Origin: Candidatus Zambryskiibacteriota bacterium
Lineage (GTDB): Bacteria; Patescibacteriota; Minisyncoccia; Phycocordibacterales; WO2-35-19
DNA: 64,000 nucleotides
Direction of reading: 5' to 3'
Assembly (NCBI GenBank): GCA_003233455.1
Contig: QILQ01000043.1
Span: 442 to 64,441, forward strand
How positions within the stretch are numbered: position 1 is the first letter of the stretch; each line of letters begins with the position of its first letter. Below, piece by piece: positions 16,358 through 56,174 of this stretch. The position numbers and the translations under genes were made by a program. The notes below the pieces were generated by a model that was not told the DNA's origin, searched no databases, and worked only from the letters and a program-made list of their open reading frames with translations.

Positions 16358-16648
16358 ATGAAAAATATAGACGAAAAAGAAATACAAAAAACACTTGATG
16401 AAATCAGTAAAAGGACAGAAGAATTTCAATCTGGTGAAAATTATTCTCCAGATAATAAATCTTCTCCTAATCATTTGATGGTAATACTTGCTACTATAGG
16501 AATAATTGTAGTGTTGATTATCGCAACATTTTTTTATAGTAAGGGTAGTGGGTCAAATTCAAAAATAAAAGCTCCAGCTGGATATGAAGTTGTTTATCCA
16601 AAAAATGCCCCTCCTCGTTTACAAAAAAATAATTATGAAAACATCTAA
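16358..16648 (+). CDS. Hypothetical single-pass membrane protein
   Basis: 96 aa with one TM helix. Confidence 0.35.
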   Translation: MKNIDEKEIQKTLDEISKRTEEFQSGENYSPDNKSSPNHLMVILATIGIIVVLIIATFFYSKGSGSNSKIKAPAGYEVVYPKNAPPRLQKNNYENI

Positions 16649-17111
16649 AGGATTTACTTTGATAGAGCTTCTCGTTGTTATCGCTATTATTGGGATACTT
16701 TCATCTATTATTCTTGGGAGTCTTAATAATGCCAGAGCTAGTGCTAGAGATTCAAAAAGAAAGCAAGAAATGATATCTATGCAAACAGCTCTTGAATTGT
16801 ATTATTTTGATAATGGTGTGTATCCTTCAACTAATGGTTCTTGGCGAGGGGCTGTTACATTTGGTAATTATGGAACAGGTGCAACAGGATATATTCCCGG
16901 GTTAGTTCCCAATTATATACCTGTTTTACCGTTAGATCCAAGTGGTACTAATGATGGATATCTCTATCGTTCTAATGGTACTAACTATAAATTGCTTTCA
17001 CATAAAAGTCCGGAGAGTTATCCTGCCCCTGGGACCAAATTTTATGATTCTGCCAGACCCACTTGGGCATGGAAGCTATGTAGTGGAGAACCTGCTTGTA
17101 GTAGTTGGTAA
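16635..17111 (+). CDS. Type IV pilin (prepilin, class III signal peptide)
   Basis: MKTSKGFTLIELLVVIAIIGIL N-terminus; paralog of 50175-50627. Confidence 0.75.
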   Translation: MKTSKGFTLIELLVVIAIIGILSSIILGSLNNARASARDSKRKQEMISMQTALELYYFDNGVYPSTNGSWRGAVTFGNYGTGATGYIPGLVPNYIPVLPLDPSGTNDGYLYRSNGTNYKLLSHKSPESYPAPGTKFYDSARPTWAWKLCSGEPACSSW

Positions 17112-17641: not shown

Positions 17642-18844
17642 ATGGCAGAAGAATTTGATCGTTCAAAACCACATGTAAATGTTGGAACAGTCGGCCATGT
17701 TGACCATGGCAAAACCACTTTAACAGCCGCGTTGCTCAAGATTATTGATATGAATAAGGCGGATGGTTATGGGGCTCGTTTGGAAGAAATTGATAGTATT
17801 GATAATGCACCCGAAGAAAAATCTCGCGGTATTACTATTGCTTTGCATCACAGCGAATATTGGACACCGGAAAGACATTACGCTCACATTGACGCTCCGG
17901 GACACGCCGACTATATTAAAAATATGATTACCGGCGCCGCTCAAATGGATGGTGCGATTTTGGTAGTTGCCGCTACGGATGGAGTGATGCCTCAAACCAG
18001 AGAACATATTTTGCTTGCTAAGCAGGTTGGAGTTCCAAAAATAATTGTGTTTCTTAATAAATGCGATATGGTGGCGGACCAAGATTTAATTGATTTGGTG
18101 GAAGAGGAAATTCGCGAGCTTTTGACTAAAAATCAATATGATGGCGCGGCTACCCCCATTATCAGAGGTTCCGCCCTTAAAGCTTTGGAAGCTAATGATA
18201 TGAATGATGAATGGGCTAAAAAAGTTTTTGAACTTGTGAAAACTCTTGATTCTTATATTCCGTTGCCTGTTCGCGAGCTTGATAAACCATTCCTTATGCC
18301 GATTGAAGATATTTTCTCCATTGAAGGCAGGGGAACCGTGGTTACCGGAAAAATTGAAAGAGGAGAAGTAAAAGTGGGTGAAGAAGTGGAAATAATCGGT
18401 CTTAAAGATGCTCAAAAAACAACCGTTACCGGTATTGAAATGTTTAACAAACAACTTAAGGAAGGCAGAGCTGGAGATAATGCCGGTATTTTACTTCGCG
18501 GTCTCAAAAAAGAAGATGTTCATAGAGGTCAAGTAATCGCTAAACCGGGAACTGTTACTCCCCATACCGATTTTGAAGCGGAAGTTTATATCTTGAAAAA
18601 AGAAGAAGGGGGACGACATACACCGTTTTTCACTGGTTACAAACCGCAATTTTACATCAGAACCACTGATGTTACCGGCGAAGTAACTTTGGCTGAAGGA
18701 GTAGAAATGGTAATGCCTGGAGATACCATTACTTTCAAAGTAAAATTAACAGCACCGGTAGCTCTGGAAGAAAAGCAAAAATTTGCTATTCGCGAAGGCG
18801 GTAAAACTGTTGGTGCTGGAGTGGTAACAAAAATAGTAGCTTAA
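17642..18844 (+). CDS. tuf: Elongation factor Tu
   Basis: [23 protein letters not shown]-domain motifs. Confidence 0.95.
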
Positions 18845-18858: not shown

Positions 18859-19242
18859 TTGAAAGAAAACCAATTAAAAAAAGAAAAAAAGACGACTAAA
18901 ACAACAAAGACTAAGGCAAAGAAAAAAGAAGAGCCTATTTCTAAATTGCGTATTAGAGTAATGGCTTATGAATATAAAGTGCTTGACCTTTCGGTTAAGC
19001 AAATTATAGATACGGCTATGCGTTATGATGCCAAAGTGGTTGGACCGGTGCCTTTGCCTACGGAAATTAAAAAGTATACGGTCAATCGTTCTCCTTTCGT
19101 TTATAAAGATGCTCGGGAGCAATTTGAGATGCGAGTGCATCGCAGATTGATAGATATTATCAATCCTTCTCCAAAAATAATGGATTCTTTAACCAATCTT
19201 TCACTTCCATCTGGAGTGAATATTGAGGTCAAGATAGTATAG
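18859..19242 (+). CDS. rpsJ: 30S ribosomal protein S10 with Lys-rich N-terminal extension
   Basis: IRVMAYEYKVLD...PLPTE S10 core. Confidence 0.9.
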   Translation: MKENQLKKEKKTTKTTKTKAKKKEEPISKLRIRVMAYEYKVLDLSVKQIIDTAMRYDAKVVGPVPLPTEIKKYTVNRSPFVYKDAREQFEMRVHRRLIDIINPSPKIMDSLTNLSLPSGVNIEVKIV

Positions 19243-19253
19243 TTACAAAAAAC

Positions 19254-19568
19254 TTGACAAGATATATACAACATATATACTTCTTATATATGGATACTGT
19301 GATATTTAAAATAGATAAAAAACTTAAACAAGCTGCCCAAAAACAAGCTAAAAAGGGAGGTTTTTCTTTATCTGACTATTATAGATCAGTTACTATTCCT
19401 TTGGCGGAAGGGAAAAGTAGGATTGGTTTAATTCGGGAGGAACAGTTAAATGCAAAAACTGTTCGTGAACTTTTAAAGATTTCAAAAGATATTAAAGAAG
19501 GTAAAAATCTATCTCCTGTTTTTGATAATGTAGAAGATGCTATAAATTATTTAAAATGTGCTAAATGA
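19254..19568 (+). CDS. RelB/DinJ-family antitoxin
   Basis: Paralogous to 34590-34853 and 63330-63635 (shared KDIKEGKN...F.NVEDAINYL C-terminus). Confidence 0.55.
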   Translation: MTRYIQHIYFLYMDTVIFKIDKKLKQAAQKQAKKGGFSLSDYYRSVTIPLAEGKSRIGLIREEQLNAKTVRELLKISKDIKEGKNLSPVFDNVEDAINYLKCAK

Positions 19569-19621
19569 GAATAGATTATCACAGAAGATTTGTTAAAAAT
19601 TTTATTAAATTATTTATATAA
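19565..19621 (+). pseudogene. Truncated YafQ/RelE-type toxin remnant (MRIDYHRRFVKNFIKLFI*)
   Basis: Resembles N-terminus of 63640-63900 toxin; stops after 18 codons. Confidence 0.3.
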
Positions 19622-19684
19622 TAATTTAATAATTCAATAACAAAAAATAATCACATCATCCATAATAATTTTATTTTTTAAGAT

Positions 19685-19735
19685 ACTATACAAATGGGAC
19701 GATCGTCCCGTTTGTATAGTCTGTTTTTTATTTTG
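19685..19735 (+). terminator. Perfect 36-bp palindrome ACTATACAAATGGGACGATCGTCCCGTTTGTATAGT followed by T-tract; second copy at 41672-41706
   Basis: GC core stem + U-run; both copies adjacent to TA cassettes in r-protein operons. Confidence 0.5.
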
Positions 19736-19828
19736 AAAATATTGACAAAAAATTTGCAAAAAATTGATAATTCTGTTAATCTATCAAAAGCCAAACGGCG
19801 TTTTTTATTGAGGATATGAATTAAAGAT

Positions 19829-20461
19829 ATGAAATTTACATTAGCTAAAAAAGTAAATATGACCCAGATTTTTGGGGAAGATGGTAAAGTGACGGCAGTG
19901 ACTGTTTTGAATGTGGAGCCTATAGTGGTTTCTCAAATTAAAACTAAAGAAAAAGATGGTTATAGTGCGGTACAGGTAGGCACTGGTTCTCGCAGAGAAA
20001 AAAACACTCCAAAACCTGTTTTAGGACATTTGAAGGATGTTCCTATGCCTGAAGGAAAGAAGGGAAGTTTCGCTGTTCTTAAAGAATTTAGATTAGAGGA
20101 TACTTCTTCTTTAAACAAAGGGGATAATATGGAGGTAGATACTTTTACTATTGGCGATAAAATTGCTGTTTCTGCTATATCAAAAGGTAAAGGTTTTCAA
20201 GGAGTGGTTAAAAGACATGGCTTCCATGGTGGTCCTCGTTCTCATGGACAAAAACATTCTGAAAGAGAGCCGGGTTCTATTGGTGCCACCGGACCTCAGA
20301 GAGTTTTTAAAGGAGTAAAAATGGCTGGTCGGATGGGAAGCGATAAGGTAACGGTGAAAAATTTAAAAGTGGTTGCCATAGATAAAGAAAACAATATAAT
20401 GATGGTCTCCGGTGCGGTGCCGGGCAGAAGAGGAACACTGGTTGAAATTCGCTCAGTTTGA
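19829..20461 (+). CDS. rplC: 50S ribosomal protein L3
   Basis: L3 family blocks (KGKGFQGVVKRHGF). Confidence 0.9.
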   Translation: MKFTLAKKVNMTQIFGEDGKVTAVTVLNVEPIVVSQIKTKEKDGYSAVQVGTGSRREKNTPKPVLGHLKDVPMPEGKKGSFAVLKEFRLEDTSSLNKGDNMEVDTFTIGDKIAVSAISKGKGFQGVVKRHGFHGGPRSHGQKHSEREPGSIGATGPQRVFKGVKMAGRMGSDKVTVKNLKVVAIDKENNIMMVSGAVPGRRGTLVEIRSV

Positions 20462-21483: not shown

Positions 21484-22332
21484 ATGGCAATAAAAAATTA
21501 CAAACCAACATCAAAATCAAGGAGACATATGTCTATTGTCTCTTATAAATCTATTTTAACTAAAAACAAACCTCTAAAAGCTCTCACTTCCGGCGTGAAG
21601 AGATCTGTCGGACGAAATAATGCGGGCAGGATAACAACGCGTCATAAAGGTGGCGGTCATAAGAGATTATTTAGAGAGATTGATTTTAAATACAACAAAA
21701 TCAATATTCCTTATAAAATAACTTCTGTGGAATATGACCCAAATCGCACCGGGTTTATCGGTATTGCTGTTTATGAAGATGGCGAGAAAAGATATATTCT
21801 TTTGCCAAAAAATATTAAAGTTGGCGAAAAACTTTTAACAGGAGAAAAGGCGGAAATAAAACAAGGTAATAGATTACCGTTAAAGAGTATACCGACTGGC
21901 GCTTTTGTTTATAATGTGGAACTAAAACCTCTTGGGGGAGCGAGAATTGCTCGTTCAGCCGGCAATTTTGTTCAAGTATTGGCTAAGGATGCTGGTTATG
22001 TTGATTTAAAAATGCCATCTAGTGAAATACGCAAAGTGAAAGAAACTTGTTGGGCCAGTATTGGCACGGTTTCAAATGAAGAAAAAAGACTTGAAAATTA
22101 TGGAAAGGCCGGAAAAAGCAGGTGGAAAGGTATTCGTCCAACAGTACGAGGTACCGCAATGAATCCGGTTGACCATCCGCATGGTGGCGGTGAAGGTAGG
22201 CAAGGCAGAGGCAGGAAACGAGCGGTTTCTAAATGGGGTAAACCAACCGGTAAAGGTCAAAAATCGCGACGCACTAAAAAATATTCTGATAAATTTATTA
22301 TTAGCAGAAGAAAAGTAGGCAAGAAGAGATAA
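21484..22332 (+). CDS. rplB: 50S ribosomal protein L2
   Basis: GTAMNPVDHPHGGGEG motif. Confidence 0.95.
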   Translation: MAIKNYKPTSKSRRHMSIVSYKSILTKNKPLKALTSGVKRSVGRNNAGRITTRHKGGGHKRLFREIDFKYNKINIPYKITSVEYDPNRTGFIGIAVYEDGEKRYILLPKNIKVGEKLLTGEKAEIKQGNRLPLKSIPTGAFVYNVELKPLGGARIARSAGNFVQVLAKDAGYVDLKMPSSEIRKVKETCWASIGTVSNEEKRLENYGKAGKSRWKGIRPTVRGTAMNPVDHPHGGGEGRQGRGRKRAVSKWGKPTGKGQKSRRTKKYSDKFIISRRKVGKKR

Positions 22333-22334
22333 TT

Positions 22335-22742
22335 ATGAATAATATAAAAATTTCACTGATTGATATTGATAAAAGAAAAAAGCTGAATATAAGATCCGGA
22401 GATACAGCGCGTGTTACTCAAAAAATAATTGAAAAAGATAAAAAGACCGGCAAGCCAAAAACCAGATTGCAGGATTTTGAAGGATTATGTTTGGCAGTCA
22501 AGCACGGTAAAGAAGCCGGAGGCACTTTTACTTTGAGAAAAGTGGCGTCAGGGGTGGGAGTTGAAAGAATTTTTCCAATTTATTCTCCAATGATAGAAAA
22601 AATAAAAATAATTAAACGCTCCAAAGTTCGTCGCGCCAAACTTTATCATATTCGTGATAAAGCGGCTAAAGAAATTCGTCGTCAAATGAGAAATGTCAGA
22701 GCTTTACCTAAAGTGGAAGAAATTGAACTTGACACAAAATAA
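22335..22742 (+). CDS. rplS: 50S ribosomal protein L19 (unusual position directly after rplB)
   Basis: RSGDTARV...FEGLCLAVKHG...GVGVERIFPIYSP...VRRAKLYHIR matches L19. Confidence 0.8.
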   Translation: MNNIKISLIDIDKRKKLNIRSGDTARVTQKIIEKDKKTGKPKTRLQDFEGLCLAVKHGKEAGGTFTLRKVASGVGVERIFPIYSPMIEKIKIIKRSKVRRAKLYHIRDKAAKEIRRQMRNVRALPKVEEIELDTK

Positions 22743-22841
22743 CTCCTTCACTCATTCATTCACTCACTCTTCATTTTTGGTCTACTAATGGGAACACCTC
22801 ACCCCTCGCTTCGCGTAGGAGAGGGGAAAGAAAAACTTAAC
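22728..22841. repeat. 114-bp direct repeat copy 1 (rplS 3' end + GGGTGAGG palindromic element); copy 2 at 23668-23784
   Basis: Near-identical (3-bp indel) copies flank the HD-domain gene. Confidence 0.75.
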
Positions 22842-22893: not shown

Positions 22894-23541
22894 TTAAAGC
22901 ACTTTTAGATTTTCTGCAATTTTTAACATTTCAGAAATACTCTTGTCTTCTAATGATTCTTTCACATTATTCCAAAGAGCAAGATTTGTTTTTGCCCAAT
23001 TCAAATATTTTGTTTTTGCTAAATCAGTATAAAAATAAATTCCTTCGTCCAGTAATTTATTTTGTTCAGAAGTAATTTTATTTGCTAGCTTTTGTATATC
23101 TATTTTATTTTGTTTGATATAATTATTTGTAAATAAAATTGGTGTAATTGGTAAAGACTTGAACAAAGTATCGGCATCACTTAATGATTTTCCTTCATTT
23201 GAAATATTTTGATTTCTAATTGCAGTATGAGCTTCCATAATTATATTTTCAATTTTGATGATTTCCTCATCAGAATATCCGCTTTTAATCAAAATATTAT
23301 TACGGTAACTATTCGCTTCTTCAGGTTCAGAATTAACTTTTACAATATAATTCAAATCATGAACAAGTGCCGCTGACTCAACAAAAAATAAATTGGCGTT
23401 GATTGATTTAGCAAAAACAATTGCTTTATTTTTTACAAAAACAATATGGTGCCATCCATGAAAAAGTAGTTTTTTACTTTTTTTTAAGTATACCTTTTCA
23501 AGGTTTAAAGTTAAATTATTTATCTTGCTTTTTTGTTTCAT
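22894..23541 (-). CDS. HD-domain phosphohydrolase-like protein
   Basis: HGWHH...VHD...SDAD matches H..H/HD/D motif set of the HD superfamily. Confidence 0.55.
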   Translation of the reverse strand: MKQKSKINNLTLNLEKVYLKKSKKLLFHGWHHIVFVKNKAIVFAKSINANLFFVESAALVHDLNYIVKVNSEPEEANSYRNNILIKSGYSDEEIIKIENIIMEAHTAIRNQNISNEGKSLSDADTLFKSLPITPILFTNNYIKQNKIDIQKLANKITSEQNKLLDEGIYFYTDLAKTKYLNWAKTNLALWNNVKESLEDKSISEMLKIAENLKVL

Positions 23542-23667
23542 AACCCAGGTGCACCAATCTTTTGTTATATATTATACAAACTCAATATATAATTATTACA
23601 TAAACTGTAAATAATCATACTATCAAGATTATTTTACTGATTTTTATAAAATTATGCAACAAAAATA

Positions 23668-23784
23668 CTTGACACAAAATAACTCCTTCACTCATTCATT
23701 CACTCACTCTTCATTTTTGGTCTACTAATGGGAACACCTCACCCCTCGCTTCGCGTATAAGGAGAGGGGAAAGAAAAACTTAAC
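23668..23784. repeat. Direct repeat copy 2 (see 22728-22841)
   Basis: Direct comparison. Confidence 0.75.
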
Positions 23785-33930: not shown

Positions 33931-34188
33931 ATGAAAACTAAAAAGACAAAAAATAATAAAGTAATAAATTTACCTGTACTTATTGAGCAAGATGAAAACG
34001 GGATGTTTGTTGGATCTGTGCCATCTTTACGCTCTTGTTATACTCAAGGTAAAACTCTTGAAGAACTTTATAAAAACCTAGAAGAAGTGGTTGAGCTTTG
34101 TACTGAGGCAGATAAAGAATTTTTTGGAAATAAAATCTATAGCAATAAAATTATAGGATTTCAAAATCTTTCTTTTTCACTTCGTTAA
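33931..34188 (+). CDS. hicB: HicB-family antitoxin
   Basis: IEQDENGMFVGSVPSLRSCYTQGKTLEELYKNLEEVVE matches HicB (UPF0150). Confidence 0.6.
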   Translation: MKTKKTKNNKVINLPVLIEQDENGMFVGSVPSLRSCYTQGKTLEELYKNLEEVVELCTEADKEFFGNKIYSNKIIGFQNLSFSLR

Positions 34189-34415
34189 TGTCACATTTAT
34201 CACCAATTTCACCAAAAAAACTCATAAAACTTTTAAAAAATGAGGGCTTTGTTTGTGTTAAAATAAAAGGAAGTCATCATTTTTTCTTGAATAATATTGA
34301 TAAAAGAACTACTTCTGTACCACTGCACGGTAATAAAGATATTGGGGTGGGACTTTTGCATAAGATTATTAAAGATATAAAAATGTCTGTTGAAAATTTT
34401 AAAAAGAAATTATAA
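34188..34415 (+). CDS. hicA: HicA-family toxin (mRNA interferase)
   Basis: KLLKNEGF...KGSHHFF...TSVPLHGNKDIGVGLLHKIIKDI matches HicA. Confidence 0.6.
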   Translation: MSHLSPISPKKLIKLLKNEGFVCVKIKGSHHFFLNNIDKRTTSVPLHGNKDIGVGLLHKIIKDIKMSVENFKKKL

Positions 34416-36947: not shown

Positions 36948-37289
36948 ATGTCACGATCACTTAAAAAAGGCCCTTATGTTGATGAAAGGGTGCTCAAAAA
37001 AATAGAAGGCAAAAAACCTGCAGATACTGCGGTTATTAAGACTTGGTCTAGAGCTTGTGCTATTGCTCCTGAGATGATTGGTTTCACTTTTGGAGTGCAT
37101 AATGGCAGGGAACATATTGAAGTTTTTGTCACAGAAGATATGGTTGGTCATAAACTTGGAGAATTTTCTTTGACTCGCAAATTTATAAAACATGGAGGTA
37201 AGATGCAAAAAGAACTTGAAGCCAAGAAAAAAGAAGATGAAATAAAAGCGGCTAAATCCGCTAAAGCGACATCTGAATCAAAAAAATAA
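36948..37289 (+). CDS. rpsS: 30S ribosomal protein S19 with Lys-rich C-terminal tail
   Basis: SLKKGPYVD...[28 protein letters not shown]. Confidence 0.85.
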
Positions 37290-37405
37290 GTTAAACATAC
37301 AAATATGCAAATGATGCAAATAATACAAATGAATGCTAATCCATATCCAAATTATATTCGTAGTTATTCGTTGATTAGTATAATTAGTAGATTGGTATAT
37401 TAAAA
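37290..37405. repeat. ~115-bp intergenic element copy 1, starts at rpsS stop codon (copy 2 at 39752-39865)
   Basis: Near-identical (1 mismatch) to copy 2; contains conserved 32-codon [35 protein letters not shown]. Confidence 0.7.
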
Positions 37406-39373: not shown

Positions 39374-39751
39374 ATGATTCAGCCCCAAACAATAATAAAA
39401 ATAGCGGATAATTCAGGTGCCAAATTGGGGCGAGTATTTAAGGTATTGGGTAGTTCTAAAAAAAGATACGCCAGAGTGGGAGAGTTGGTTATCTTTTCTG
39501 TTCAAAAGGCAGAGCCCCGCAAAGAAATTAAAAAGAAAGCGGTGCTTTTGGGTTTAATTGTTCGCCAAAAAGCTCCACTTAGAAGAAAAGACGGTTCTTA
39601 TATTCGTTTTGATGAAAATGCGGCTGTTGTGGTAGAGCGAAAAAAAGGCGAGATTATTCCCAAAGCCGGAAGAATATTTGGTCCGATACCGAGAGAAATC
39701 GCTGAAGCGGGATATCAAGCTATTGTTTCTTTGGCACCTGAAATAATTTAG
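39374..39751 (+). CDS. rplN: 50S ribosomal protein L14
   Basis: MIQPQTIIKIADNSGAK. Confidence 0.9.
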   Translation: MIQPQTIIKIADNSGAKLGRVFKVLGSSKKRYARVGELVIFSVQKAEPRKEIKKKAVLLGLIVRQKAPLRRKDGSYIRFDENAAVVVERKKGEIIPKAGRIFGPIPREIAEAGYQAIVSLAPEII

Positions 39752-39865
39752 TTAAACATACAAATATGCAAATGATGCAAATGATACAAATGAATGCTAA
39801 TCCATATCCAAATTATATTCGTAGTTATTCGTTGATTAGTATAATTAGTAGATTGGTATATTAAA
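39752..39865. repeat. ~115-bp element copy 2, starts at rplN stop codon
   Basis: See 37290-37405. Confidence 0.7.
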
Positions 39866-41249: not shown

Positions 41250-41471
41250 ATGTCTAAATTAGGTCCAATATCATGGATCAAGTTTGTAAGAAGAATGAGA
41301 GTTCTTAATTTTAGTGGACCATATCAAGAAGGCAAGCATCCATACATGATAAAAGGTAATCTTTCTATTACTATTCCAAATCCTCATGAGAGGGATATTG
41401 GTGTAGATTTATTAATTCGTATTTTAAGACAAGCGGGAATTTCTAGATTAGTTTGGATGAAATTTAAGTAA
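41250..41471 (+). CDS. hicA: HicA-family toxin
   Basis: ...KHPYMIKGNLSITIPNPHERDIGVDLLIRILRQAGIS matches HicA. Confidence 0.55.
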   Translation: MSKLGPISWIKFVRRMRVLNFSGPYQEGKHPYMIKGNLSITIPNPHERDIGVDLLIRILRQAGISRLVWMKFK

Positions 41472-41499
41472 TTTTATTTAAAATTATACATTAAAAATT

Positions 41500-41668
41500 G
41501 CAATTTTTTACGGTCGTGTTATAAACCAGATTGTTGAGGCAGGAATGACCGAGGTAAGGCTGTGTGAGTATCAGGATATACATATGGTAGCCGGACTTTT
41601 CAGAAAAGCTCTGCTCTAGCCTAAACGAGGTTGCAATCGAAAGACGCAACCCCTTCTTTTTTATTTTA
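41500..41668 (+). ncRNA. Candidate small RNA / structured 3' region ending in a rho-independent terminator (GGTTGC..GCAACC + U-tract)
   Basis: 170-nt non-coding segment with internal complementarity; identity not established. Confidence 0.2.
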
Positions 41669-41671
41669 AAT

Positions 41672-41706
41672 ACTATACAAACGGGACGATCGTCCCAAGT
41701 GTGTAG
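41672..41706. terminator. Second copy of TATACAAACGGGACGATCGTCCC palindrome (bidirectional terminator candidate, comFC / hicBA)
   Basis: Matches 19685-19720 palindrome. Confidence 0.45.
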
Positions 41707-41723
41707 TGTTAAATATTTGAATT

Positions 41724-42386
41724 TTAATGAGCGATGAATAAACCAACTACTCTTTTAGCACCAGCAGAAACCAAAGCACGACGAGCTTCAAGTAAAGAAG
41801 CTCCGGTAGTGTAAACATCATCTAAAATTATTATTGTTCTATTTTTTAAATTTTTATCTGAATGCATTGATTTTTTTAGGTTCTTCATTCTTTCTTCTCT
41901 GTTCAATTTAGTTTGTCTTTTTGTTTCTCTTACTTTTTTTAAAGTATTATAAGAAACTTCCATATTATCGCCACTTAATTTTTTTATTTCTCCGCAAAGT
42001 TCTTCGCATTGATTAAATCCTCTTTTTCTTTTTTCTTTTCTACTCATTGGCATAGGAACTAAAAGAGGTAGGGTTCCTTCAAAAAGAGCAATTTCAGAAG
42101 AGATATCCATTAATTCTTCGTTTAGATAAACAGCCACTCTTTTTCTTAAAGCGGCATTATTTTTATATTTTATAAATTTTATTATTAACTTAACTATTTT
42201 GTTATTATAATCAAACAAAACAAAAATATCTTTTGAATAAACAGGCGATTTAGCTAAAAGATTTCGCATTGTTTCTGTGGGGAGTTCTAAAAGTTTTTTG
42301 ATTTTTATATCTTCTGGTGCCAGAGCATTTACTATGATTTCTAAAATTTTTTTTATCCAGTTTATAACTGACTTTAACATAAACAT
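41724..42386 (-). CDS. comFC: ComF-family protein (phosphoribosyltransferase domain)
   Basis: IILDDVYTTGASL PRTase motif. Confidence 0.7.
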   Translation of the reverse strand: MFMLKSVINWIKKILEIIVNALAPEDIKIKKLLELPTETMRNLLAKSPVYSKDIFVLFDYNNKIVKLIIKFIKYKNNAALRKRVAVYLNEELMDISSEIALFEGTLPLLVPMPMSRKEKRKRGFNQCEELCGEIKKLSGDNMEVSYNTLKKVRETKRQTKLNREERMKNLKKSMHSDKNLKNRTIIILDDVYTTGASLLEARRALVSAGAKRVVGLFIAH

Positions 42387-42437: not shown

Positions 42438-43547
42438 ATGAGTTTTATTTCCGATATTTTTAAAAAGAAAAAAGTAAGTGCTTTAGGTATTGATATAGGT
42501 TCCTCTTCTATAAAGATAGTTCAACTTCAAAAAAAAGGAAGTAAAGCGATATTGGAAACATATGGGGAACTTTCTTTAGGTCCTTATAGCGGAGTTTCAG
42601 TTGGTCAATCCACTAATTTGCCTGTTGAAAAAATAATACAAGCAATGAATGATTTACTTAATGAAAAAGAAGTCGCCATTACCACTAAATTTTGCGGTTT
42701 AGCTATTCCTTTCAAAGCAAGTTTACTCTCAATTATACAAATGCCAGATATAGGACAAAAAGAATTGACTTCTATGGTGCCGATAGAAGCTCGCAAATAT
42801 ATACCGGTGCCGATATCGGATGTTACCATTGATTGGTCTATTGTGCCTAAATCTGAAGTGGTAGAAGATTCTTCTAAAGAAAAAACAGATAAAAATAAAG
42901 TAAAAACCGTAGATATTTTATTGGTAGCTATTCATAATAATATTATCAATCAATATAAAGAAATTGTCTCTAAAACTCAACTTAACGCTAAATTTTTTGA
43001 GATAGAAGTCTTTAGTTCAATGAGAGCTATTCTTGAAGGCATCAAAGGTCCTATTATGATTTTTGATATGGGAGCTTCAACTACTAAATTGTATGTGGTG
43101 GATAGGGGTTTAGTTCAAAATTCACACACCATAAATCAAGGTTCTCAGGATATAACTTCAAATATTGCCAGAGTTTTAAATGTTTCAACAGAAGAAGCGG
43201 AAGTTATAAAAAGATCTGTTGGTATGGGTAAAACTGTGGATGGAGTAGATCTTTCAGAAATGGTATTAGTGATTGCTGGCAATATTTTTGCTGAAGCGAA
43301 TAGATTTCTTTTTGATTTTCAAAAGAAAAAAAATAAAAATATAAAATCAGTATTTTTGACTGGTGGCGGTTCAGCTCTTTTGGGTTTTAGAGATTTGGCT
43401 GCTCAAAATTTTAAAGTGGAAGTAATTTCCGCGGACCCTTTTGAAAAAGTGGAAACTCCCGCCTTTTTGGAAAATATACTTAAAGTAACAGGTCCTGAAT
43501 TTACCGTGGCTGTCGGCGCCGCTCTTCGTTGTTTGGAAGAGATTTAA
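42438..43547 (+). CDS. pilM: Type IV pilus assembly protein PilM (actin-like ATPase fold)
   Basis: ALGIDIGSSSIKIVQL N-terminus. Confidence 0.75.
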   Translation: MSFISDIFKKKKVSALGIDIGSSSIKIVQLQKKGSKAILETYGELSLGPYSGVSVGQSTNLPVEKIIQAMNDLLNEKEVAITTKFCGLAIPFKASLLSIIQMPDIGQKELTSMVPIEARKYIPVPISDVTIDWSIVPKSEVVEDSSKEKTDKNKVKTVDILLVAIHNNIINQYKEIVSKTQLNAKFFEIEVFSSMRAILEGIKGPIMIFDMGASTTKLYVVDRGLVQNSHTINQGSQDITSNIARVLNVSTEEAEVIKRSVGMGKTVDGVDLSEMVLVIAGNIFAEANRFLFDFQKKKNKNIKSVFLTGGGSALLGFRDLAAQNFKVEVISADPFEKVETPAFLENILKVTGPEFTVAVGAALRCLEEI

Positions 43548-43648
43548 TTATATTTATATTATTTTAGTATGAAGAATAAAAATGGGATGTAGGAATTATT
43601 AACATAATCTATTGACAGATTGGCTACTTTGGCTATAATAGCTATTAT

Positions 43649-43903
43649 ATGAATCAAATAACATTTACAGCAAAAGAAGCAAAAAATAATTTTGGTAGGC
43701 TTTTAGATGAAGCTCGTCGTTCTCCTGTGGCTATAAACAAAAACGGCAGAAAAGTTGCTTTTGTGGTTTCTTATGAAGATTTTTCTCAATTTGAAGGAAT
43801 GGTAGATTCTTATTGGGGCAAAAAAGCTAAAACGGCAATAAAAAAAGGATATCTGACTGTTGCTGAAAGTAAAAAATTTGTAGATTCTATTTTAAATGCT
43901 TAA
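43649..43903 (+). CDS. Phd/YefM-family antitoxin
   Basis: N-terminal ITFTAKEAKNNFGRLLDEARRSPVAINKNGRKVAFVVSYEDF typical of Phd/YefM. Confidence 0.55.
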   Translation: MNQITFTAKEAKNNFGRLLDEARRSPVAINKNGRKVAFVVSYEDFSQFEGMVDSYWGKKAKTAIKKGYLTVAESKKFVDSILNA

Positions 43904-44168
43904 TATTAGATTTTCAAAATTATCAAAGAAATTTGTAGAAAGAGTTCCAATAAAACACAGAAGACAAATTGTTGAAAAATCTGTAAGTCTAAAAAATAAT
44001 CCTCTACCTTCGGATAGTAGGGCTATGAAGGGATTTCCGGGTTATTTTCGTGTTGATATTGGGGAATATAGGATTATTTATACAATTTCAGAATCTAAAA
44101 TAAATATTGAACTAATTGGTAAAAGAAACGACGACGAAGTTTATCGTAAATTTAAAAGACTTATGTGA
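43896..44168 (+). CDS. RelE/ParE-family toxin
   Basis: GYFRVDIGEYRIIYTI...IELIGKRNDDEVY; 8-nt overlap with antitoxin. Confidence 0.65.
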   Translation: MLNIRFSKLSKKFVERVPIKHRRQIVEKSVSLKNNPLPSDSRAMKGFPGYFRVDIGEYRIIYTISESKINIELIGKRNDDEVYRKFKRLM

Positions 44169-44239
44169 TTAGTAACTGAAGTAATCAACAATATTTGTTT
44201 ACACTTGTGCGGGTTTATGAAGTATAATTAAAATAAATT

Positions 44240-44812
44240 ATGGCACCAAACTTTCAATCATCATTCATACCCAAAGGACCGGTTACTCAAGAGGTTTTTA
44301 AAAAGAAAAAAACCAGTTTGTTTGGTATTTTAGTAATTTTTTTGTTTATCGCCTCAATAATCATTTCTATCGGTCTGTTTGTTTACAAAGGTATTGTTAA
44401 AAATGATATTAAAAATCTTCAATCTCAACTAACTGTGGCAGAAACAAAAATAGATAGAAAAGAAATCAATGAGATGTCTCAATTTAGCAAAAAATTAGGT
44501 TTTACCAAGTTAATTATTTCCAAACATCAAGTAGTTTCAAATTTTATGGACACTTTAGCTTCTTCTACTGTTAGCTCGGTTTATTTTGATGATTTTAATT
44601 ATGATAATTTGAAAAAAGGCAATAATTTGACTGTTGTTTTGCATGGCAAGGCTACTGATTATGCGAGTGTCGCTTTACAAGAAAATGTATTTTCTCAAAA
44701 TAAATATTTTAAATCGGTAACATTTTCCAATCTGACTTTAACAGACAAAGGTCTTGTTTCTTTTGATTTAACCATTTCTGTTGACCCACGAATTTCTGTT
44801 TATTCTCCGTAA
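44240..44812 (+). CDS. PilN-like bitopic pilus assembly protein
   Basis: Single N-terminal TM + coiled coil; position after pilM. Confidence 0.4.
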   Translation: MAPNFQSSFIPKGPVTQEVFKKKKTSLFGILVIFLFIASIIISIGLFVYKGIVKNDIKNLQSQLTVAETKIDRKEINEMSQFSKKLGFTKLIISKHQVVSNFMDTLASSTVSSVYFDDFNYDNLKKGNNLTVVLHGKATDYASVALQENVFSQNKYFKSVTFSNLTLTDKGLVSFDLTISVDPRISVYSP

Positions 44813-44834
44813 TTTATAATATTAAAATTAAAAT

Positions 44835-45383
44835 ATGAGTAATACTTCAATAATCGCATATCTGATATTAACTCTCTCAATAGGGTATGCTTTTATTTAT
44901 CCCGCAACGGGGAATTTGTCTGTTCTTATGAAGGAAAAACAAAAATATAATGACTCTTTGGAAACAGTTAGCAATATTAAGAATAAAAAAAGTGAATTAT
45001 TAACCAAATTTAATAATATATCTGTTGCTGATAAAAAAAATATAAATATTATCTTGCCAAACTCTTTGAATTTTGTGAAGTTAATCTCTCAAATTGACGC
45101 GGTGGCAGCGAATTATAACATATCAATAGATAAAGTTACTTCAAAAAAAACAGCTCCCGCTAGCGGAAAATCAATAGGAGAGAAACAACCCCCTAAAACA
45201 TATGATTCGGCGATTATCGGATTTTCATTTATCGCTCCTTACAACAAATTTAGTAATTTTATGGATGATTTAGAGAAGAGTCTGCGTATTTTAGATATAA
45301 GGTCTGTAAAATTAAAGACTCAAGAAAATGGAAATTACTCATATAATGTTGAATTTGAAACTTATTGGCTTAAACCATCATGA
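44835..45383 (+). CDS. PilO-like pilus assembly protein
   Basis: N-terminal TM, position. Confidence 0.4.
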   Translation: MSNTSIIAYLILTLSIGYAFIYPATGNLSVLMKEKQKYNDSLETVSNIKNKKSELLTKFNNISVADKKNINIILPNSLNFVKLISQIDAVAANYNISIDKVTSKKTAPASGKSIGEKQPPKTYDSAIIGFSFIAPYNKFSNFMDDLEKSLRILDIRSVKLKTQENGNYSYNVEFETYWLKPS

Positions 45384-45703
45384 AAAATAAAAACTCAAAA
45401 AATAAACACACCTCTATTTTAATTATAATCCTTTTAGGACTCTTAATTATAGCTTATAAAATTATGTTTATTTCACCTAATGAAAATTTAATTACTGATG
45501 AAAATACTGTCGCTAGTGTGAGAGCGACAGCTATCCTGCAAGAAATTAAAGATATGAATTTTGATACAAATGTGGTAAATAATCCTAAATTCAAATCTCT
45601 AAAAAGTATTGAAGCTCCATTATTTTCTCTACCTATTGGAAGAAAAAATCCGTTTGCCAGCAATTCCATTTCTAATTCCATTTCTAATTCCATTTCTAAT
45701 TAA
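45380..45703 (+). CDS. Hypothetical membrane-anchored protein with C-terminal NSIS x3 repeat (12-bp tandem DNA repeat 45661-45700)
   Basis: TM segment; tandem repeat visible. Confidence 0.3.
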   Translation: MKNKNSKNKHTSILIIILLGLLIIAYKIMFISPNENLITDENTVASVRATAILQEIKDMNFDTNVVNNPKFKSLKSIEAPLFSLPIGRKNPFASNSISNSISNSISN

Positions 45704-45712
45704 CATTTCATT

Positions 45713-47482
45713 ATGAGTATTTTAGATATTCTTGTAAAACAGGGTGTAATTGAAACTAAAGACCTTTCTTCTATAAAAGGAAAAACAAACTCTTCCAGAA
45801 AAGACATAGAAGAAAGTTTAGTGTCTTTGGGAATTAGCGAAGAAGATATTTTAAGAGCCAAAGCTGAATATTATTCTATGCCCATTAAAAAAGTTGATAT
45901 ATCGCTTATAACCAGCAAAGCACTTGATTATATTCCGGAAGAAGCCGCGGTTTATTATCAATTTGTGCCTATGGGGGTAAACGATGGCGTTTTGGAAGTT
46001 GGAGTGGTGGATCCGGATAATATTTCAGCTCGTGACGCTTTAAATTTTATATCATCTAAAGTAAATTTACCGTTTAAAACTTTTATTATTTCTCAAGATA
46101 ATTTTGATGAAATTATAAAATTATATAAAGGTTTGTCCGGCGAGGTAACTAAAGCTCTATCCGAACTTGAAACTGAATTCGTAAATGATTCTAAAGAAAA
46201 TAATAAAAAATCAAAAGAAAGTAAAAAAGTGAGTTTAACGGCAACTTCTGGCGATAATGAAAATGATTTAAGTGCTTCCGAAAACAAAGGCACTAAAATT
46301 ATTGAAAATGCTCCAGTTACCAAAATAGTAGCCACTATTTTAAGATACGCTATTGACGGTAGGGCATCCGATATTCACATAGAACCGACTGCTTCAAATG
46401 TAAAAGTTCGGTTTAGAGTGGATGGTATTATGAATACCAGTATTGTTCTTCCTTTAAGAGTTCATAGTGCTATTGTGGCCAGAATTAAAATTATGTCTAA
46501 TATGAGGCTTGACGAGAAAAGAAAACCTCAAGATGGTAGATTTAGTGCGAAATTAAATGAAAGAAAAGTGGATTTTAGAGTGTCTACTTTCCCAACTTAT
46601 TTTGGTGAAAAAGTGGTTATACGTATTTTGGACCAAGAAAAAGGAATTCGTAAATTAAGTGAACTTGGCTTAAGTAAAAGAAATCTGGAACTGATTATGG
46701 ATGCCATAAAACTGCCTTATGGTCTTATTCTTATATCCGGTCCAACCGGTTCGGGAAAATCTACTACTTTATATTCTATGATGAACGAAGTTGATAGAGA
46801 CCATAAAAATGTGCTTTCTCTTGAAGACCCGATTGAATATAATATGGAAGGTATGAGTCAATCGCAAGTTATGCCGGAAATAGGTTATACTTTTGCTTCC
46901 GGTCTTCGGACTACTCTTCGTCAGGATCCGGATATTATAATGGTGGGTGAGATAAGAGATAAAGAAACAGCTCAACTTGCGATTCAAGCGGCACTTACTG
47001 GACATTTGGTTTTTTCCACTATTCATACCAATACCGCTATAGGAGTAATACCTCGTCTTATTGATATGGGTATAGATCCTTATCTTATCGCTCCCACTTT
47101 GGTATTGGCTATTGCTCAACGATTGGTCAGATCATTTTGCCCAGGAGCGGGCAAGCCGATTAAAGTTGATGCTAGTATTGAAATAATGATATCTAAACAA
47201 CTTGAAGATTTACCTGAAGAATATAAAAAAGAAATTCCAATTGGAAAAGAAGTTTATGAAATTTCTCCGGCTCCCAATTGTCCAAGCGGAGTTAAAGGTA
47301 GAGTGGCGGTAATGGAAGTGCTTAAAGTTGATAAAAAAATGGAACAAATCATTCTTAAAAATCCGACTGAACAAGAAATTTGGAAATATGCCAGAGCTAA
47401 AGGTATGCTTACAATGAAAGATGACGCCTTAATAAAAGTTTTCAATAAAATTATTCCTTTTGAAGAATATAATAGTTTATAG
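45713..47482 (+). CDS. pilB: Type IV pilus assembly ATPase PilB (GspE family)
   Basis: N-terminal T2SSE_N domain, Walker A GPTGSGKSTT, Asp/His boxes. Confidence 0.9.
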   Translation: MSILDILVKQGVIETKDLSSIKGKTNSSRKDIEESLVSLGISEEDILRAKAEYYSMPIKKVDISLITSKALDYIPEEAAVYYQFVPMGVNDGVLEVGVVDPDNISARDALNFISSKVNLPFKTFIISQDNFDEIIKLYKGLSGEVTKALSELETEFVNDSKENNKKSKESKKVSLTATSGDNENDLSASENKGTKIIENAPVTKIVATILRYAIDGRASDIHIEPTASNVKVRFRVDGIMNTSIVLPLRVHSAIVARIKIMSNMRLDEKRKPQDGRFSAKLNERKVDFRVSTFPTYFGEKVVIRILDQEKGIRKLSELGLSKRNLELIMDAIKLPYGLILISGPTGSGKSTTLYSMMNEVDRDHKNVLSLEDPIEYNMEGMSQSQVMPEIGYTFASGLRTTLRQDPDIIMVGEIRDKETAQLAIQAALTGHLVFSTIHTNTAIGVIPRLIDMGIDPYLIAPTLVLAIAQRLVRSFCPGAGKPIKVDASIEIMISKQLEDLPEEYKKEIPIGKEVYEISPAPNCPSGVKGRVAVMEVLKVDKKMEQIILKNPTEQEIWKYARAKGMLTMKDDALIKVFNKIIPFEEYNSL

Positions 47483-47504
47483 GATGGCGATATAAACTAT
47501 ATCA

Positions 47505-47921
47505 ATGTATAATAATATTATGTCTGAAGAAGCAGAAAAAAAATATAAAATAATAATGGTTGATGATGATGATTTTTTAGTCAATATGTATACCGCTAAA
47601 TTTAATCGCAATAATGTTTTGGTAGATGGTTGCGTTTCGGGAGAATCTTTGCTAGAAAAATTGAGGGACGGGATAAAAGCGGATCTTATACTTCTGGATA
47701 TTATAATGCCAAATATGAGTGGTATAGAAACTTTGGCAAAAATGCGTCAAGCGGAATTAGCGAAAGAGATTCCGGTGGTAATGTTAACAAATCAAAATAA
47801 TGAAAAAAATATAGAAGAGGCTAAAAAACTTGGTGTCGCCGGTTATATAATTAAATCAGCAATTACGCCATCTGAAGTGATAAAAAAAGTTATAGCTATT
47901 ATAAAAAATTCACAAACCTAA
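47505..47921 (+). CDS. CheY-like receiver domain protein (PilH/PilG-like) within pilus locus
   Basis: MVDDDD...LLDIIMP...K receiver motifs. Confidence 0.7.
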   Translation: MYNNIMSEEAEKKYKIIMVDDDDFLVNMYTAKFNRNNVLVDGCVSGESLLEKLRDGIKADLILLDIIMPNMSGIETLAKMRQAELAKEIPVVMLTNQNNEKNIEEAKKLGVAGYIIKSAITPSEVIKKVIAIIKNSQT

Positions 47922-47931
47922 TTTTATTTTT

Positions 47932-48959: not shown

Positions 48960-48963
48960 CTTT

Positions 48964-54209: not shown

Positions 54210-54658
54210 ATGTTTAAATTAAGAAATAAAGGTTTTACACTTATTGAACTTCTAGTGGTTATCGCTATTATTGGTATTCTTTCTTCCGTTGTTTTAGCGT
54301 CTCTAAACACCGCTCGTGGTAGAGGTAATGATGCTAAAGTTAAAGCTCAGCTTTCCGGTCTTCGGGTCTTCGTGCCGCTGCTGAACTCTATTATGATGAT
54401 AATCCAACTCAGGGTTATGGTCCCGCATCTTCCAGTTGTACAACTGGTATGTTTGCTAATGCGACTGTTCAAGCTTATATCGCTCCCGCTAATCTTCCAG
54501 CTAACGCTACCCCGGCATGTTTCTCTTCTACCGGTAGTTATGCGGTTACAACCAAACTTCCTGGCGCAGGTGGTGCTAACAAATGGTGTGTTGATTCACT
54601 TGGTGTTTCTAAGCAAGTTATCGGTATCGCTACTTCGGCTGGTTGTCCCGCTTCCTAA
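54210..54658 (+). pseudogene. Type IV pilin paralog inactivated by 8-bp tandem duplication (GGTCTTCG x2 at 54357-54372)
   Basis: N-terminus KGFTLIELLVVIAIIGIL in frame 1; C-terminal pilin homology (KWCVDSLG...) in +2 frame; duplication visible. Confidence 0.65.
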
Positions 54659-56156: not shown

Positions 56157-56174
56157 TTATATTTTATATAATAT

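What the first reader, a model, noticed from the sequence alone, without database searches (positions are those of the whole stretch)
19254..19735. DinJ antitoxin with a toxin remnant inserted between rpsJ and rplC inside the S10 operon, followed by a perfect 36-bp palindrome
A DinJ-like antitoxin plus an 18-codon stub of a YafQ-like toxin sits between S10 and L3. It is followed by the palindrome ACTATACAAATGGGACGATCGTCCCGTTTGTATAGT with a T-tract, and then by a fresh TTGACA-17-GATAAT promoter for rplC. The cassette thus splits a normally polycistronic operon. The same palindrome recurs after the hicBA cassette that follows rplE at 41672.
Basis: seen in the sequence. Interest (0 to 1): 0.55.

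Follow-up and report, generated by a model that had tools for sequence, protein, structure and literature searches.

The report
Decayed toxin-antitoxin cassette inside ribosomal operon
Between ribosomal genes S10 and L3 this ultra-small (Patescibacteria) bacterium carries an old, vertically inherited RelB/DinJ–RelE/YafQ toxin-antitoxin cassette that has lost its toxin, kept its antitoxin and ends in a strong terminator-like hairpin. This is an ordinary kind of module in an unusual, clade-conserved place.

Summary
The sequence features are real, with small corrections. The 36-bp palindrome (19685-19720) has one T·G position. The second copy (41672-41707) has a degenerate arm.

The 92-aa ORF (19290-19568) is a RelB/DinJ-like ribbon-helix-helix antitoxin. 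The 18-codon ORF that overlaps its stop (19565-19621) is the 5' remnant of a RelE/YafQ/ParE-superfamily toxin.

New here: the cassette is not a recent insertion. Orthologues (64-87% aa identity) lie between rpsJ and rplC in at least six other Patescibacteria lineages, mostly with an intact 85-87-aa toxin. Their divergence tracks that of L3. The toxin was deleted independently in this genome (5' stub kept) and in a second lineage (3' end kept).

The cassette promoter, with three phased TATATAY repeats, is conserved across lineages.

The hairpin plus U-run is a textbook intrinsic terminator (-24.4 kcal/mol). It belongs to a small dispersed palindrome family also found at non-TA sites, including inside mnmA coding sequence, so a TA-specific role is not supported. 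Termination itself is untested. Moderate interest.

The parts
18859..19242 (+). rpsJ (ribosomal protein S10), upstream neighbour; tuf lies at 17642-18844
   Evidence: Pfam Ribosomal_S10, E 4.6e-32. ORF list.
19254..19281 (+). Cassette promoter P1: TTGACA (19254-19259), 16-nt spacer, TATACT (19276-19281). It starts 11 nt after the rpsJ stop. The ATG lies 8 nt after the -10 box, so the transcript is probably leaderless (inferred).
   Evidence: 11/12 consensus match. Nearly invariant across W, L019, L024, L003, L002 and L025, although synonymous sites are saturated.
19263..19291 (+). Three direct repeats TATATAY at 11-bp phasing (19263-69, 19274-80, 19285-91). They overlap the -10 box and the start codon. 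Candidate operator for the ribbon-helix-helix antitoxin (inferred).
   Evidence: Read from the sequence. Conserved in orthologous loci.
19290..19568 (+). RelB/DinJ-like antitoxin gene, intact, 92 aa
   Evidence: 87 homologues, several named by JGI as the antitoxin of RelBE/YafQ-DinJ. NCBIfam RelB/DinJ hits are below cut-off. The AF2 model has an RHH plus two C-terminal helices. Foldseek top hits are DinJ 4ML0/4Q2U/9LEW and RelB 4FXE, probability 0.93-0.97. dN/dS is 0.15-0.21 against orthologues.
19565..19621 (+). Toxin pseudogene stub: 18 codons, of which the first 16 (19565-19612) are homologous to the RelE/YafQ-like toxin N-terminus
   Evidence: Translation. Alignment to the intact L019 toxin. 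Orthologous toxins pass Pfam PF05016; two of the four reach the NCBIfam RelE_StbE cut-off (27.9 bits) and two fall just below it.
19622..19684 (+). AT-rich filler where the toxin body used to be; no detectable homology remains
   Evidence: Over 19613-19684, the local alignment score against the L019 toxin is no better than shuffles (405 of 500 shuffles score at least as high).
19685..19720 (+). 36-bp near-perfect palindrome; in RNA a 16-bp stem with a 4-nt loop
   Evidence: RNA fold gives -24.4 kcal/mol, z -7.8 on the + strand and -20.6 on the - strand.
19721..19735 (+). U-rich tail CTGTTTTTTATTTT, which completes an intrinsic-terminator-like site
   Evidence: Terminator scan.
19742..19771 (+). 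The TTGACA is shared only with L022.
19754..19782 (+). Conserved rplC promoter P2: TTGCAA (19754-59), 17-nt spacer with TG at 19774-75, TAATCT (19777-82)
   Evidence: TTGC, TG, TA, T and T are invariant in six lineages (alignment A3).
19786..19806 (+). Conserved leader motif AAAAGCCAAACGGCGTTTTTT just downstream of P2; function unknown
   Evidence: Alignment A3. No Rfam match at E<=1.
19829..20461 (+). rplC (L3), first gene of the rplC-rplD-rplW-rplB-rplS block
   Evidence: Pfam Ribosomal_L3. Gene order.
41672..41707 (+). Second, degenerate copy of the palindrome. It lies between hicBA plus an unknown 170-nt segment and the 3' end of a convergent ComF-like gene.
   Evidence: Fold gives -21.3 kcal/mol (+) against -14.2 (-), with no U-run.

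Best explanation
This is an ancestral, vertically inherited type II toxin-antitoxin module: a RelB/DinJ-like ribbon-helix-helix antitoxin with a RelE/YafQ/ParE-superfamily toxin. It has resided between rpsJ and rplC since the common ancestor of a group of Patescibacteria (Paceibacteria/Zambryskibacteria-like genomes).

In this genome the toxin gene has been destroyed by deletion. Only its first 16 homologous codons remain. The antitoxin gene, its promoter and its operator-like repeats are intact. Losing the toxin first is the only order of decay that an addiction module tolerates, so an orphan antitoxin is the expected intermediate.

Most likely mode of operation (inferred):
1. Transcripts arriving from tuf-rpsJ, together with probably leaderless transcripts from P1, cover the antitoxin.
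2. The antitoxin dimer represses P1 through the three phased TATATAY repeats.
3. Transcription ends at the 16-bp hairpin plus U-run at 19685-19735.
4. The rplC-rplD-rplW-rplB-rplS block is driven by its own clade-conserved promoter P2 at 19754-19782.

The hairpin is one copy of a small dispersed palindrome family (core GGGACGATCGTCCC with ACAAAY/RTTTGT or ACATTT/AAATGT arms). It is not a TA-specific signal.
For: Shown:
- Family assignment of the antitoxin by homologues, sub-threshold RelB/DinJ HMM hits and fold search.
- Homology of the stub to intact toxins. Those toxins pass Pfam ParE_toxin; two of four reach the NCBIfam RelE_StbE cut-off.
- The order rpsJ-antitoxin-(toxin)-rplC is seen in W/L001, L019-21, L022-24, L003-5, L002, L025-27 and the P0045 contig.
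- Antitoxin identity to the window (87/80/64/68/65%) parallels L3 identity (89/76/75/72/75%).
- More distant homologues (<=53% identity) are ordinary TA pairs elsewhere in genomes.
- Toxin loss was independent. The window keeps the 5' end. L025 keeps only the 3' end, 'IGTHSELYK*'. The nearest relatives of each (L019; P0036 and P0045) have intact toxins.
- The antitoxin has dN/dS 0.15-0.21 against orthologues. There are 5 derived amino-acid changes on the window branch against 4 on the toxin-bearing L019 branch.
- P1, its repeats and P2 are conserved through saturated synonymous divergence.
- The hairpin folds at -24.4 kcal/mol, z -7.8, with a U-run. Both copies are more stable as + strand RNA.
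Against: - There are no transcript data, so termination, P1/P2 activity and leaderless initiation are all inferred.
- The antitoxin scores below the curated cut-offs of every RelB/DinJ model (best 20.2 bits against 96; 13.5 against 45.65). The Foldseek E-values are only 0.03-0.06.
- The short window branch cannot separate ongoing selection on the orphan antitoxin from recent toxin loss.
- The 14-bp core is identical in copies from different loci and organisms, and related copies lie inside coding sequence. This hints at a constraint beyond hairpin formation.
- The second window copy has no U-run.
- Orthology of the hairpin with the weaker L019 hairpin is plausible but not proven.
Confidence: 0.75

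Rival explanations
1. Recent mobile insertion: a TA cassette carried or targeted by the palindrome recently landed in the S10 operon and split it. On this view the palindrome is a TA-associated recombination or boundary signal.
For: Both copies in the window lie 3' of TA cassettes. The rpsJ|rplC junction does take up other insertions in relatives: hicBA plus a glyoxalase in L002, and about 1 kb in L022.
Against: The cassette sits at the same junction in seven lineages whose divergence tracks L3. Relatives with intact cassettes lack the palindrome. Three other TA pairs in the window lack it. Copies outside the window are next to a PaaX-like gene or inside mnmA. No sequence beyond about 32 nt is shared between copies.
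Confidence: 0.07
2. Domesticated orphan antitoxin: after the toxin was lost, selection keeps the RHH protein. It would act as a transcription factor, for example for P1 and read-through into rplC, or as immunity against related incoming toxins. This adds to the main explanation rather than excluding it.
For: Two independent lineages lost the toxin and kept an intact antitoxin, promoter and repeats. Evolution is not faster on the window branch. The toxin body has decayed past recognition while the antitoxin has no lesion.
Against: Each toxin-less lineage has a close toxin-bearing relative (86-87% antitoxin identity), so both losses may be too recent for decay to show. The only other RelB-like antitoxin in the window is 31% identical, which makes cross-neutralisation doubtful. 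No target other than P1 is evident.
Confidence: 0.25
3. The palindrome is mainly something other than a terminator. It could be a REP/RPE-like self-propagating element, or the binding site of a dimeric DNA-binding protein (the core has the GGGAC-N4-GTCCC architecture). Its terminator-like look at 19685 would then be incidental or secondary.
For: - Dispersed copies share the same idiosyncratic asymmetry: an ACAAAC left arm with an AAATGT right arm, giving a 3x3 internal loop, in W2, L007 and L009b.
- The 14-bp core is identical in all copies.
- Copies sit in the hypervariable MnmA linker of two organisms, with different but complementary arms.
- W2 has no U-run.
- GGGACnnnnGTCCC is the DevR/OsdR-type box in actinobacteria (PMC5069765).
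Against: - There are only 2 copies in 64 kb, and very few in the large collections.
- No transposase was noticed among the window ORFs that were examined, but the window was not screened for one and many ORFs were never scanned.
- W1 has every feature of an intrinsic terminator, and both copies are better RNA hairpins on the transcribed strand.
- The collection search required an exact core, so core conservation outside the window is partly ascertainment.
- The miaA hit (L010) is probably a coding-sequence coincidence, because homologues carry the motif TNxTIVQIV there.
Confidence: 0.3

Closest known systems
E. coli / V. cholerae DinJ-YafQ (PDB 4ML0, 4Q2U, 9LEW)
   Same: Same architecture: a roughly 90-aa antitoxin with an N-terminal ribbon-helix-helix and C-terminal toxin-wrapping helices, encoded just upstream of a roughly 86-aa RelE-fold toxin with a 4-nt overlap. 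These are the best structural matches. The orthologous toxins hit YafQ and RelE models.
   Different: Only 21-23% identity, and below all curated HMM cut-offs. In this genome the toxin is a stub. The chromosomal position, inside the S10 ribosomal operon, is fixed in a clade. DinJ's operator is a palindrome with a LexA box (general knowledge); here the candidate operator is three direct TATATAY repeats.
E. coli RelBE (PDB 4FXE)
   Same: RHH antitoxin with a ribosome-dependent mRNA-interferase-type toxin. Autoregulated promoter with repeated operator half-sites (general knowledge). Second-best fold match.
   Different: Low sequence identity. No evidence here for conditional cooperativity or Lon-dependent turnover.
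Orphan (solo) antitoxins and decayed chromosomal TA loci
   Same: Toxin inactivated first, antitoxin left intact; this was seen twice independently.
   Different: The two decay events can be dated against intact orthologues at the same conserved locus, which is rarely possible.
REP elements, Rickettsia palindromic elements and paired uptake-sequence terminators (Neisseria, Haemophilus)
   Same: A short imperfect palindrome occurs at several unrelated loci, at 3' ends of genes and occasionally in frame within coding sequence. It can double as a terminator hairpin.
   Different: Copy number is very low (2 per 64 kb). No RAYT or other transposase was noticed, though the window was not screened for one. 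The element is only about 32-36 nt. In mnmA it does not appear as a clean insertion (+2 to +4 aa in a hypervariable linker).
E. coli S10 operon with its L4-controlled leader
   Same: Same core genes, rpsJ-rplC-rplD-rplW-rplB.
   Different: Here, and in the whole clade, rplC has its own promoter and leader motif, and the TA cassette lies between rpsJ and rplC. rplB is followed by rplS (L19) instead of rpsS. No S10-leader-like RNA was detected.

Membership tests
RelB/DinJ family antitoxin | N-terminal ribbon-helix-helix DNA-binding fold followed by C-terminal toxin-binding helices | tested here: met
   AF2 model (mean pLDDT 79.8): extended N-terminus, helices 10-23 and 27-39, then 55-69 and 81-91. 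The top nine Foldseek PDB hits are all DinJ or RelB chains (top five probability 0.93-0.97, E 0.03-0.07), mostly aligned over 82-92 columns.
RelB/DinJ family antitoxin | Score above the curated cut-off of a family HMM (Pfam PF04221, TIGR02384, NF008412) | tested here: not met
   Window protein: no Pfam RelB hit; NF008412 20.2 bits (cut-off 96); TIGR02384 13.5 bits (cut-off 45.65). The L025 orthologue gives TIGR02384 23 bits over its full length. One homologue, P0079, carries a precomputed PF04221 hit. It should therefore be filed as RelB/DinJ-like, a divergent subfamily, and not as a member of the curated models.
RelB/DinJ family antitoxin | Encoded immediately upstream of, and co-oriented with, a RelE/YafQ/ParE-fold toxin gene | tested here: met
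   Orthologues and distant homologues have an 85-87-aa toxin ORF abutting or overlapping the antitoxin stop. In the window only the 18-codon stub with the ATGA overlap remains.
RelB/DinJ family antitoxin | Neutralises its toxin and represses its own promoter | not testable with these tools
   Needs co-expression and DNA-binding experiments.
RelE/YafQ/ParE-superfamily toxin (for the stub) | Complete toxin domain of about 85-95 aa | tested here: not met
   The window has 18 codons and then a stop, and no homology remains in 19613-19684. Intact orthologues pass PF05016 (24.6-30.6 bits against 23). Two of the four reach TIGR02385 (29.4 and 28.7 bits against 27.9); the other two score 26.0 and 26.6. 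The window element is a pseudogene.
Intrinsic (Rho-independent) terminator | Stable stem-loop with G+C pairs, directly followed by a U-run on the transcribed strand and downstream of a gene | tested here: met
   16 pairs, 6 of them G-C, 4-nt loop, tail CUGUUUUUUAUUUU. Fold -24.4 kcal/mol, z -7.8. The second copy at 41672 lacks the U-run, so it does not meet this feature.
Intrinsic (Rho-independent) terminator | Transcripts actually end there | not testable with these tools
   No RNA data are available for this uncultured organism.
REP / RPE-type dispersed palindromic element | Many copies per genome | tested here: inconclusive
   2 copies in 64 kb. The exact 20-mer was found in only 3 low-GC metagenome contigs (4 sites), with none in CPR genomes of the species-representative set and none in viral contigs. 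The rest of this genome is not available.
REP / RPE-type dispersed palindromic element | Homologous copies at unrelated loci, with flanks unrelated | tested here: met
   Alignment A2: only about 32 nt are shared. W2, L007 and L009b share the same arm asymmetry.
REP / RPE-type dispersed palindromic element | Associated transposase (RAYT) or a demonstrated insertion polymorphism | not tested
   No transposase was noticed among the window ORFs scanned, but many ORFs were not scanned. In mnmA the element is not a clean indel.

The most novel reading that the evidence does not exclude
The cassette may be a long-fixed functional part of the translation-gene cluster in this Patescibacteria clade rather than a passenger. 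A ribosome-dependent RelE/YafQ-type toxin and its labile antitoxin would be transcribed together with tuf-rpsJ. Toxin activity would then be coupled to the output of the ribosomal operon, and the RHH protein would double as a regulator at the rpsJ|rplC boundary, which would explain why it outlives the toxin. Separately, the hairpin may belong to a new family of short palindromic elements in these genomes that can also live inside coding sequence.
Probability: 0.15. Interest if true: 0.6.

Novelty: new member of a known kind. Interest (0 to 1): 0.4.

Why it matters
TA modules are usually mobile and patchily distributed. Here one has stayed at the same junction of the most conserved operon in bacteria through saturating synonymous divergence, and its decay (toxin first, twice independently) can be read step by step against intact orthologues.

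The locus also shows that in this clade the S10 operon is organised differently. rplC has its own conserved promoter, and rplB is followed by L19. Binning and annotation pipelines that assume a canonical ribosomal block should take this into account.

It is a useful case study rather than a new mechanism.

Tried and rejected
- Rfam at the gathering threshold on the whole window, and at E<=1 on 19230-19850 and 41400-41760: only tRNAs, nothing at either palindrome or in the rplC leader.
- Exact 20-mer scans. The metagenome collection gave 10 loci, of which 7 come from contigs of 50-70% GC, are unrelated, and are probably chance or DevR-box-like sites. The genome collection gave 3 non-CPR hits. 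The viral collection gave 0. The source genome is in none of these collections, so a genome-wide count was impossible.
- The miaA hit (L010) was first read as a palindrome inside a coding sequence. Homologues show the conserved peptide TNxTIVQIV at that spot, so most of the match is forced by coding. It is treated as a probable coincidence.
- Residual toxin homology in 19613-19684: none above shuffles.
- The GC-rich insert in L022 looked tmRNA-like by eye. ARAGORN and Rfam find nothing, so that idea was dropped.
- The segment 41476-41662 as a structured RNA: fold z-score +0.7, so not supported.
- Antitoxin relatives on viral contigs: none.
- A PDB sequence-profile search gave only weak DinJ hits (E about 0.35) below designed repeat proteins; the fold search was more informative.
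- Literature searches found no report of a TA module in the S10 operon of Patescibacteria, and none of this palindrome outside an actinobacterial DevR/OsdR paper.

Full report
**What is in the sequence**

The window has 32% G+C. Its best protein matches are all Patescibacteria (CPR) metagenome contigs, and the identical locus is on JGI contig Ga0212224_1000125.
- tuf (17642-18844) and rpsJ (18859-19242) are followed after 11 nt by TTGACA-16-TATACT (19254-19281).
- Next comes an ORF whose true start is ATG 19290, since all homologues begin MDT(V/I)IFK. It ends at 19568 and encodes 92 aa.
- An 18-codon ORF (19565-19621, MRIDYHRRFVKNFIKLFI*) overlaps its stop by ATGA.
- After 63 nt of AT-rich sequence comes the 36-bp palindrome at 19685-19720. 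One position is not complementary: T19695 opposes G19710, which is G·U in + strand RNA.
- The palindrome is followed by CTGTTTTTTATTTT. It does not occur in shuffled sequence (0 of 100) and is the best hairpin in the window.
- rplC starts at 19829.

**What the two ORFs are**

The antitoxin:
- Pfam gives nothing above cut-off for the 92-aa protein. NCBIfam gives only sub-threshold RelB/DinJ hits.
- It has 87 homologues, all about 90 aa and from CPR-type metagenomes. Several are labelled by JGI as the antitoxin of RelBE/YafQ-DinJ.
- A model built from 40 homologues shows a ribbon-helix-helix followed by two helices.
- Its best structural matches are DinJ (4ML0, 4Q2U, 9LEW) and RelB (4FXE), with probability 0.93-0.97.
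- I therefore call it RelB/DinJ-like. It does not reach the curated family cut-offs.

The stub:
- In the closest relative, L019 (87% antitoxin identity), the antitoxin is followed by an intact 86-aa ORF starting MKIEYHKKFIKKFVKL. The window stub MRIDYHRRFVKNFIKL aligns with it codon for codon.
- The intact orthologous toxins pass Pfam ParE_toxin. Two of the four reach the NCBIfam RelE_StbE cut-off and two fall just short. All four give weaker YafQ hits.
- Beyond codon 16 the window retains no detectable toxin homology.

**The cassette is ancestral at this junction**

Looking up the contigs that encode homologues showed the order rpsJ-antitoxin-(toxin)-rplC-rplD-rplW-rplB-rplS in six further lineages:
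- L019-21;
- L022-24;
- L003-5;
- L002, a Candidatus Zambryskibacteria MAG;
- L025-27;
- the P0045 contig.

In L002 and L003 the gene callers missed the toxin, but the ORFs are intact.

Antitoxin identity to the window (87, 80, 64, 68, 65%) follows L3 identity (89, 76, 75, 72, 75%), and EF-Tu is 88-90% identical. Synonymous sites are saturated for the deeper pairs. This is the signature of vertical inheritance.

Homologues at 53% identity or less are ordinary TA pairs in unrelated contexts. None was found on viral contigs.

**Two independent toxin losses**

The window keeps the toxin's 5' end. L025-27 keeps only about 45 nt of its 3' end, encoding IGTHSELYK*. The nearest relatives of each have intact toxins: L019 for the window, and P0036 (86%) and P0045 (79%) for L025.

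The antitoxin shows dN/dS of 0.15-0.21 against its orthologues. With L022 as outgroup, the window branch carries 5 derived amino-acid changes and the toxin-bearing L019 branch carries 4.

Toxin-first decay is what addiction logic predicts. Whether the orphan antitoxin is now kept by selection cannot be settled on such short branches.

**Regulatory signals**

- From TTGACA to the start codon, the P1 region is nearly invariant across lineages.
- P1 contains three TATATAY repeats spaced 11 bp apart. They overlap the -10 box and the ATG.
- This arrangement suits a repressor of the RHH type, and the spacing implies a leaderless or near-leaderless transcript. Both points are inferences.
- Upstream of rplC, six lineages share TTGC(A/G)N-N14-TG-N-TA(A/G/T)T(C/T)T. 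In the window this is 19754-19782.
- That promoter is followed by the conserved motif AAGCCnAAnGGCGTTTTT.
- This, rather than the TTGACA/GATAAT pair 12 nt upstream, is the phylogenetically supported rplC promoter.
- Relatives with intact toxins have no hairpin between the toxin stop and this promoter. The cassette as such therefore does not interrupt the operon.

**The palindrome**

As + strand RNA it forms a 16-bp stem at -24.4 kcal/mol (z -7.8) followed by a U-run, which is a canonical intrinsic terminator. Both window copies are more stable on the + strand than on the - strand.

The second copy (41672-41707) shares the central 26 nt. It has a 3x3 internal loop and no U-run, and it lies in a convergent intergenic region after hicBA and an unexplained 170-nt segment.

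Distribution outside the window:
- Exact-match scans of the large collections found the 20-mer core in only three low-GC contigs.
- Two sites flank a PaaX-like wHTH/Cas2-like gene in L009.
- One lies inside the hypervariable linker of mnmA in L007.
- One lies inside miaA in L010. That one is probably forced by the conserved peptide TNxTIVQIV.
- A 62%-identical MnmA from another sample carries a variant palindrome, AACATTTTGGACGATCGTCCAAAATGTT, at the same codon position.

Only about 32 nt are shared between copies. W2, L007 and L009b share the same arm asymmetry, which argues for copying from a common source.

L019 has a weaker hairpin with the same outer arms and an ACGGTCGT centre at the same place after its intact toxin. 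The hairpin therefore probably predates the toxin loss, but an alternative alignment exists.

The palindrome is thus a rare dispersed element and not a TA-specific signal. The other three TA pairs in the window lack it. The GGGAC-N4-GTCCC core resembles actinobacterial DevR/OsdR boxes (PMC5069765), which probably accounts for some of the high-GC hits.

**Verdict**

'Inserted', 'perfect', '17' and 'TA-associated palindrome' need correction.

The module is a new, divergent member of a well-known kind. The notable points are:
- its clade-wide fixation inside the S10 operon;
- two datable toxin-first decays;
- a conserved separate rplC promoter;
- a small palindrome family of unknown spread mechanism.

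Termination and regulation remain inferences that need RNA data.

Noticed in passing
window 21484-22742 and 36948-37289; L002, L003, L025: rplB is followed directly by rplS (L19, Pfam PF01245), not rpsS. rpsS lies 14.6 kb downstream, and secE-nusG-rplK and many other genes lie in between. The order rplB-rplS-tRNA-cobalamin adenosyltransferase recurs in relatives, so the S10 operon is rearranged across the clade.
   Followed up: partly
window 37280-37404 and 39741-39865: A 125-nt repeat (97% identical) sits after rpsS and after rplN, inside the ribosomal cluster. The first copy abuts rplV, whose only canonical start (GTG 37444) would remove the conserved N-terminus; an in-frame ATT at 37399 may be used instead.
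   Followed up: partly
window 22727-22817 and 23667-23757: Perfect 91-nt direct repeats bracket a minus-strand 215-aa ORF (22894-23541, weak HD-domain hit). The ORF is inserted between rplS and tRNA-Leu (23857), and this looks like a recent insertion with a long target duplication.
   Followed up: no
window 4821, 7440, 8707, 11172, 30273 (and L025 3790-3815): A second recurring hairpin family, CCCTCTCC-loop-GGAGAGGG, occurs in intergenic regions. In L025 a copy follows rpsJ.
   Followed up: no
window 41500-41662: A 43-46% GC island in a 32% GC genome lies between hicA and the second palindrome. It is preceded by TTGCAA-N16-TATAAA and ends in a hairpin plus T-run. It has no Rfam hit and no significant fold.
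   Followed up: partly
window 33931-34415, 43649-44168, 63366-63900: The same 64 kb holds three further TA pairs: hicBA, phd/parE-relE-like, and an intact relB/yafQ-like pair whose antitoxin is 31% identical to the one studied. None has the palindrome.
   Followed up: partly
L007 2516-2550 and L034 855-890: Palindromes with the GGACGATCGTCC core lie at the same position in the hypervariable linker of MnmA in two organisms (about 62% aa identity). Their arms differ but stay self-complementary. Homologues P0213 and P0214 carry the encoded peptide GRSS(K/Q)M or GRPSQM.
   Followed up: partly
L002 3919-4003: An insert of about 80 bp with 13-nt terminal inverted repeats (CCCGTTAGAAATA) and an ATGGAT duplication sits exactly at the antitoxin start codon of the Zambryskibacteria orthologue.
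   Followed up: no
L002 2931-3781; L022 723-1831: The rpsJ|rplC junction takes up other insertions in relatives: hicBA plus a glyoxalase gene before the cassette in L002, and about 1.1 kb of GC-richer sequence with unknown ORFs after it in L022, with the rplC promoter region apparently duplicated at its edges.
   Followed up: partly
window 16584-17111, 42438-50627, 54210-57839: The window is dense in type IV pilus / pseudopilin genes (N_methyl prepilins and PilM by Pfam; PilB/PilT/PilC-like ORFs judged by eye only). A ComF-like phosphoribosyltransferase gene (41724-42386) lies next to the second palindrome copy.
   Followed up: no
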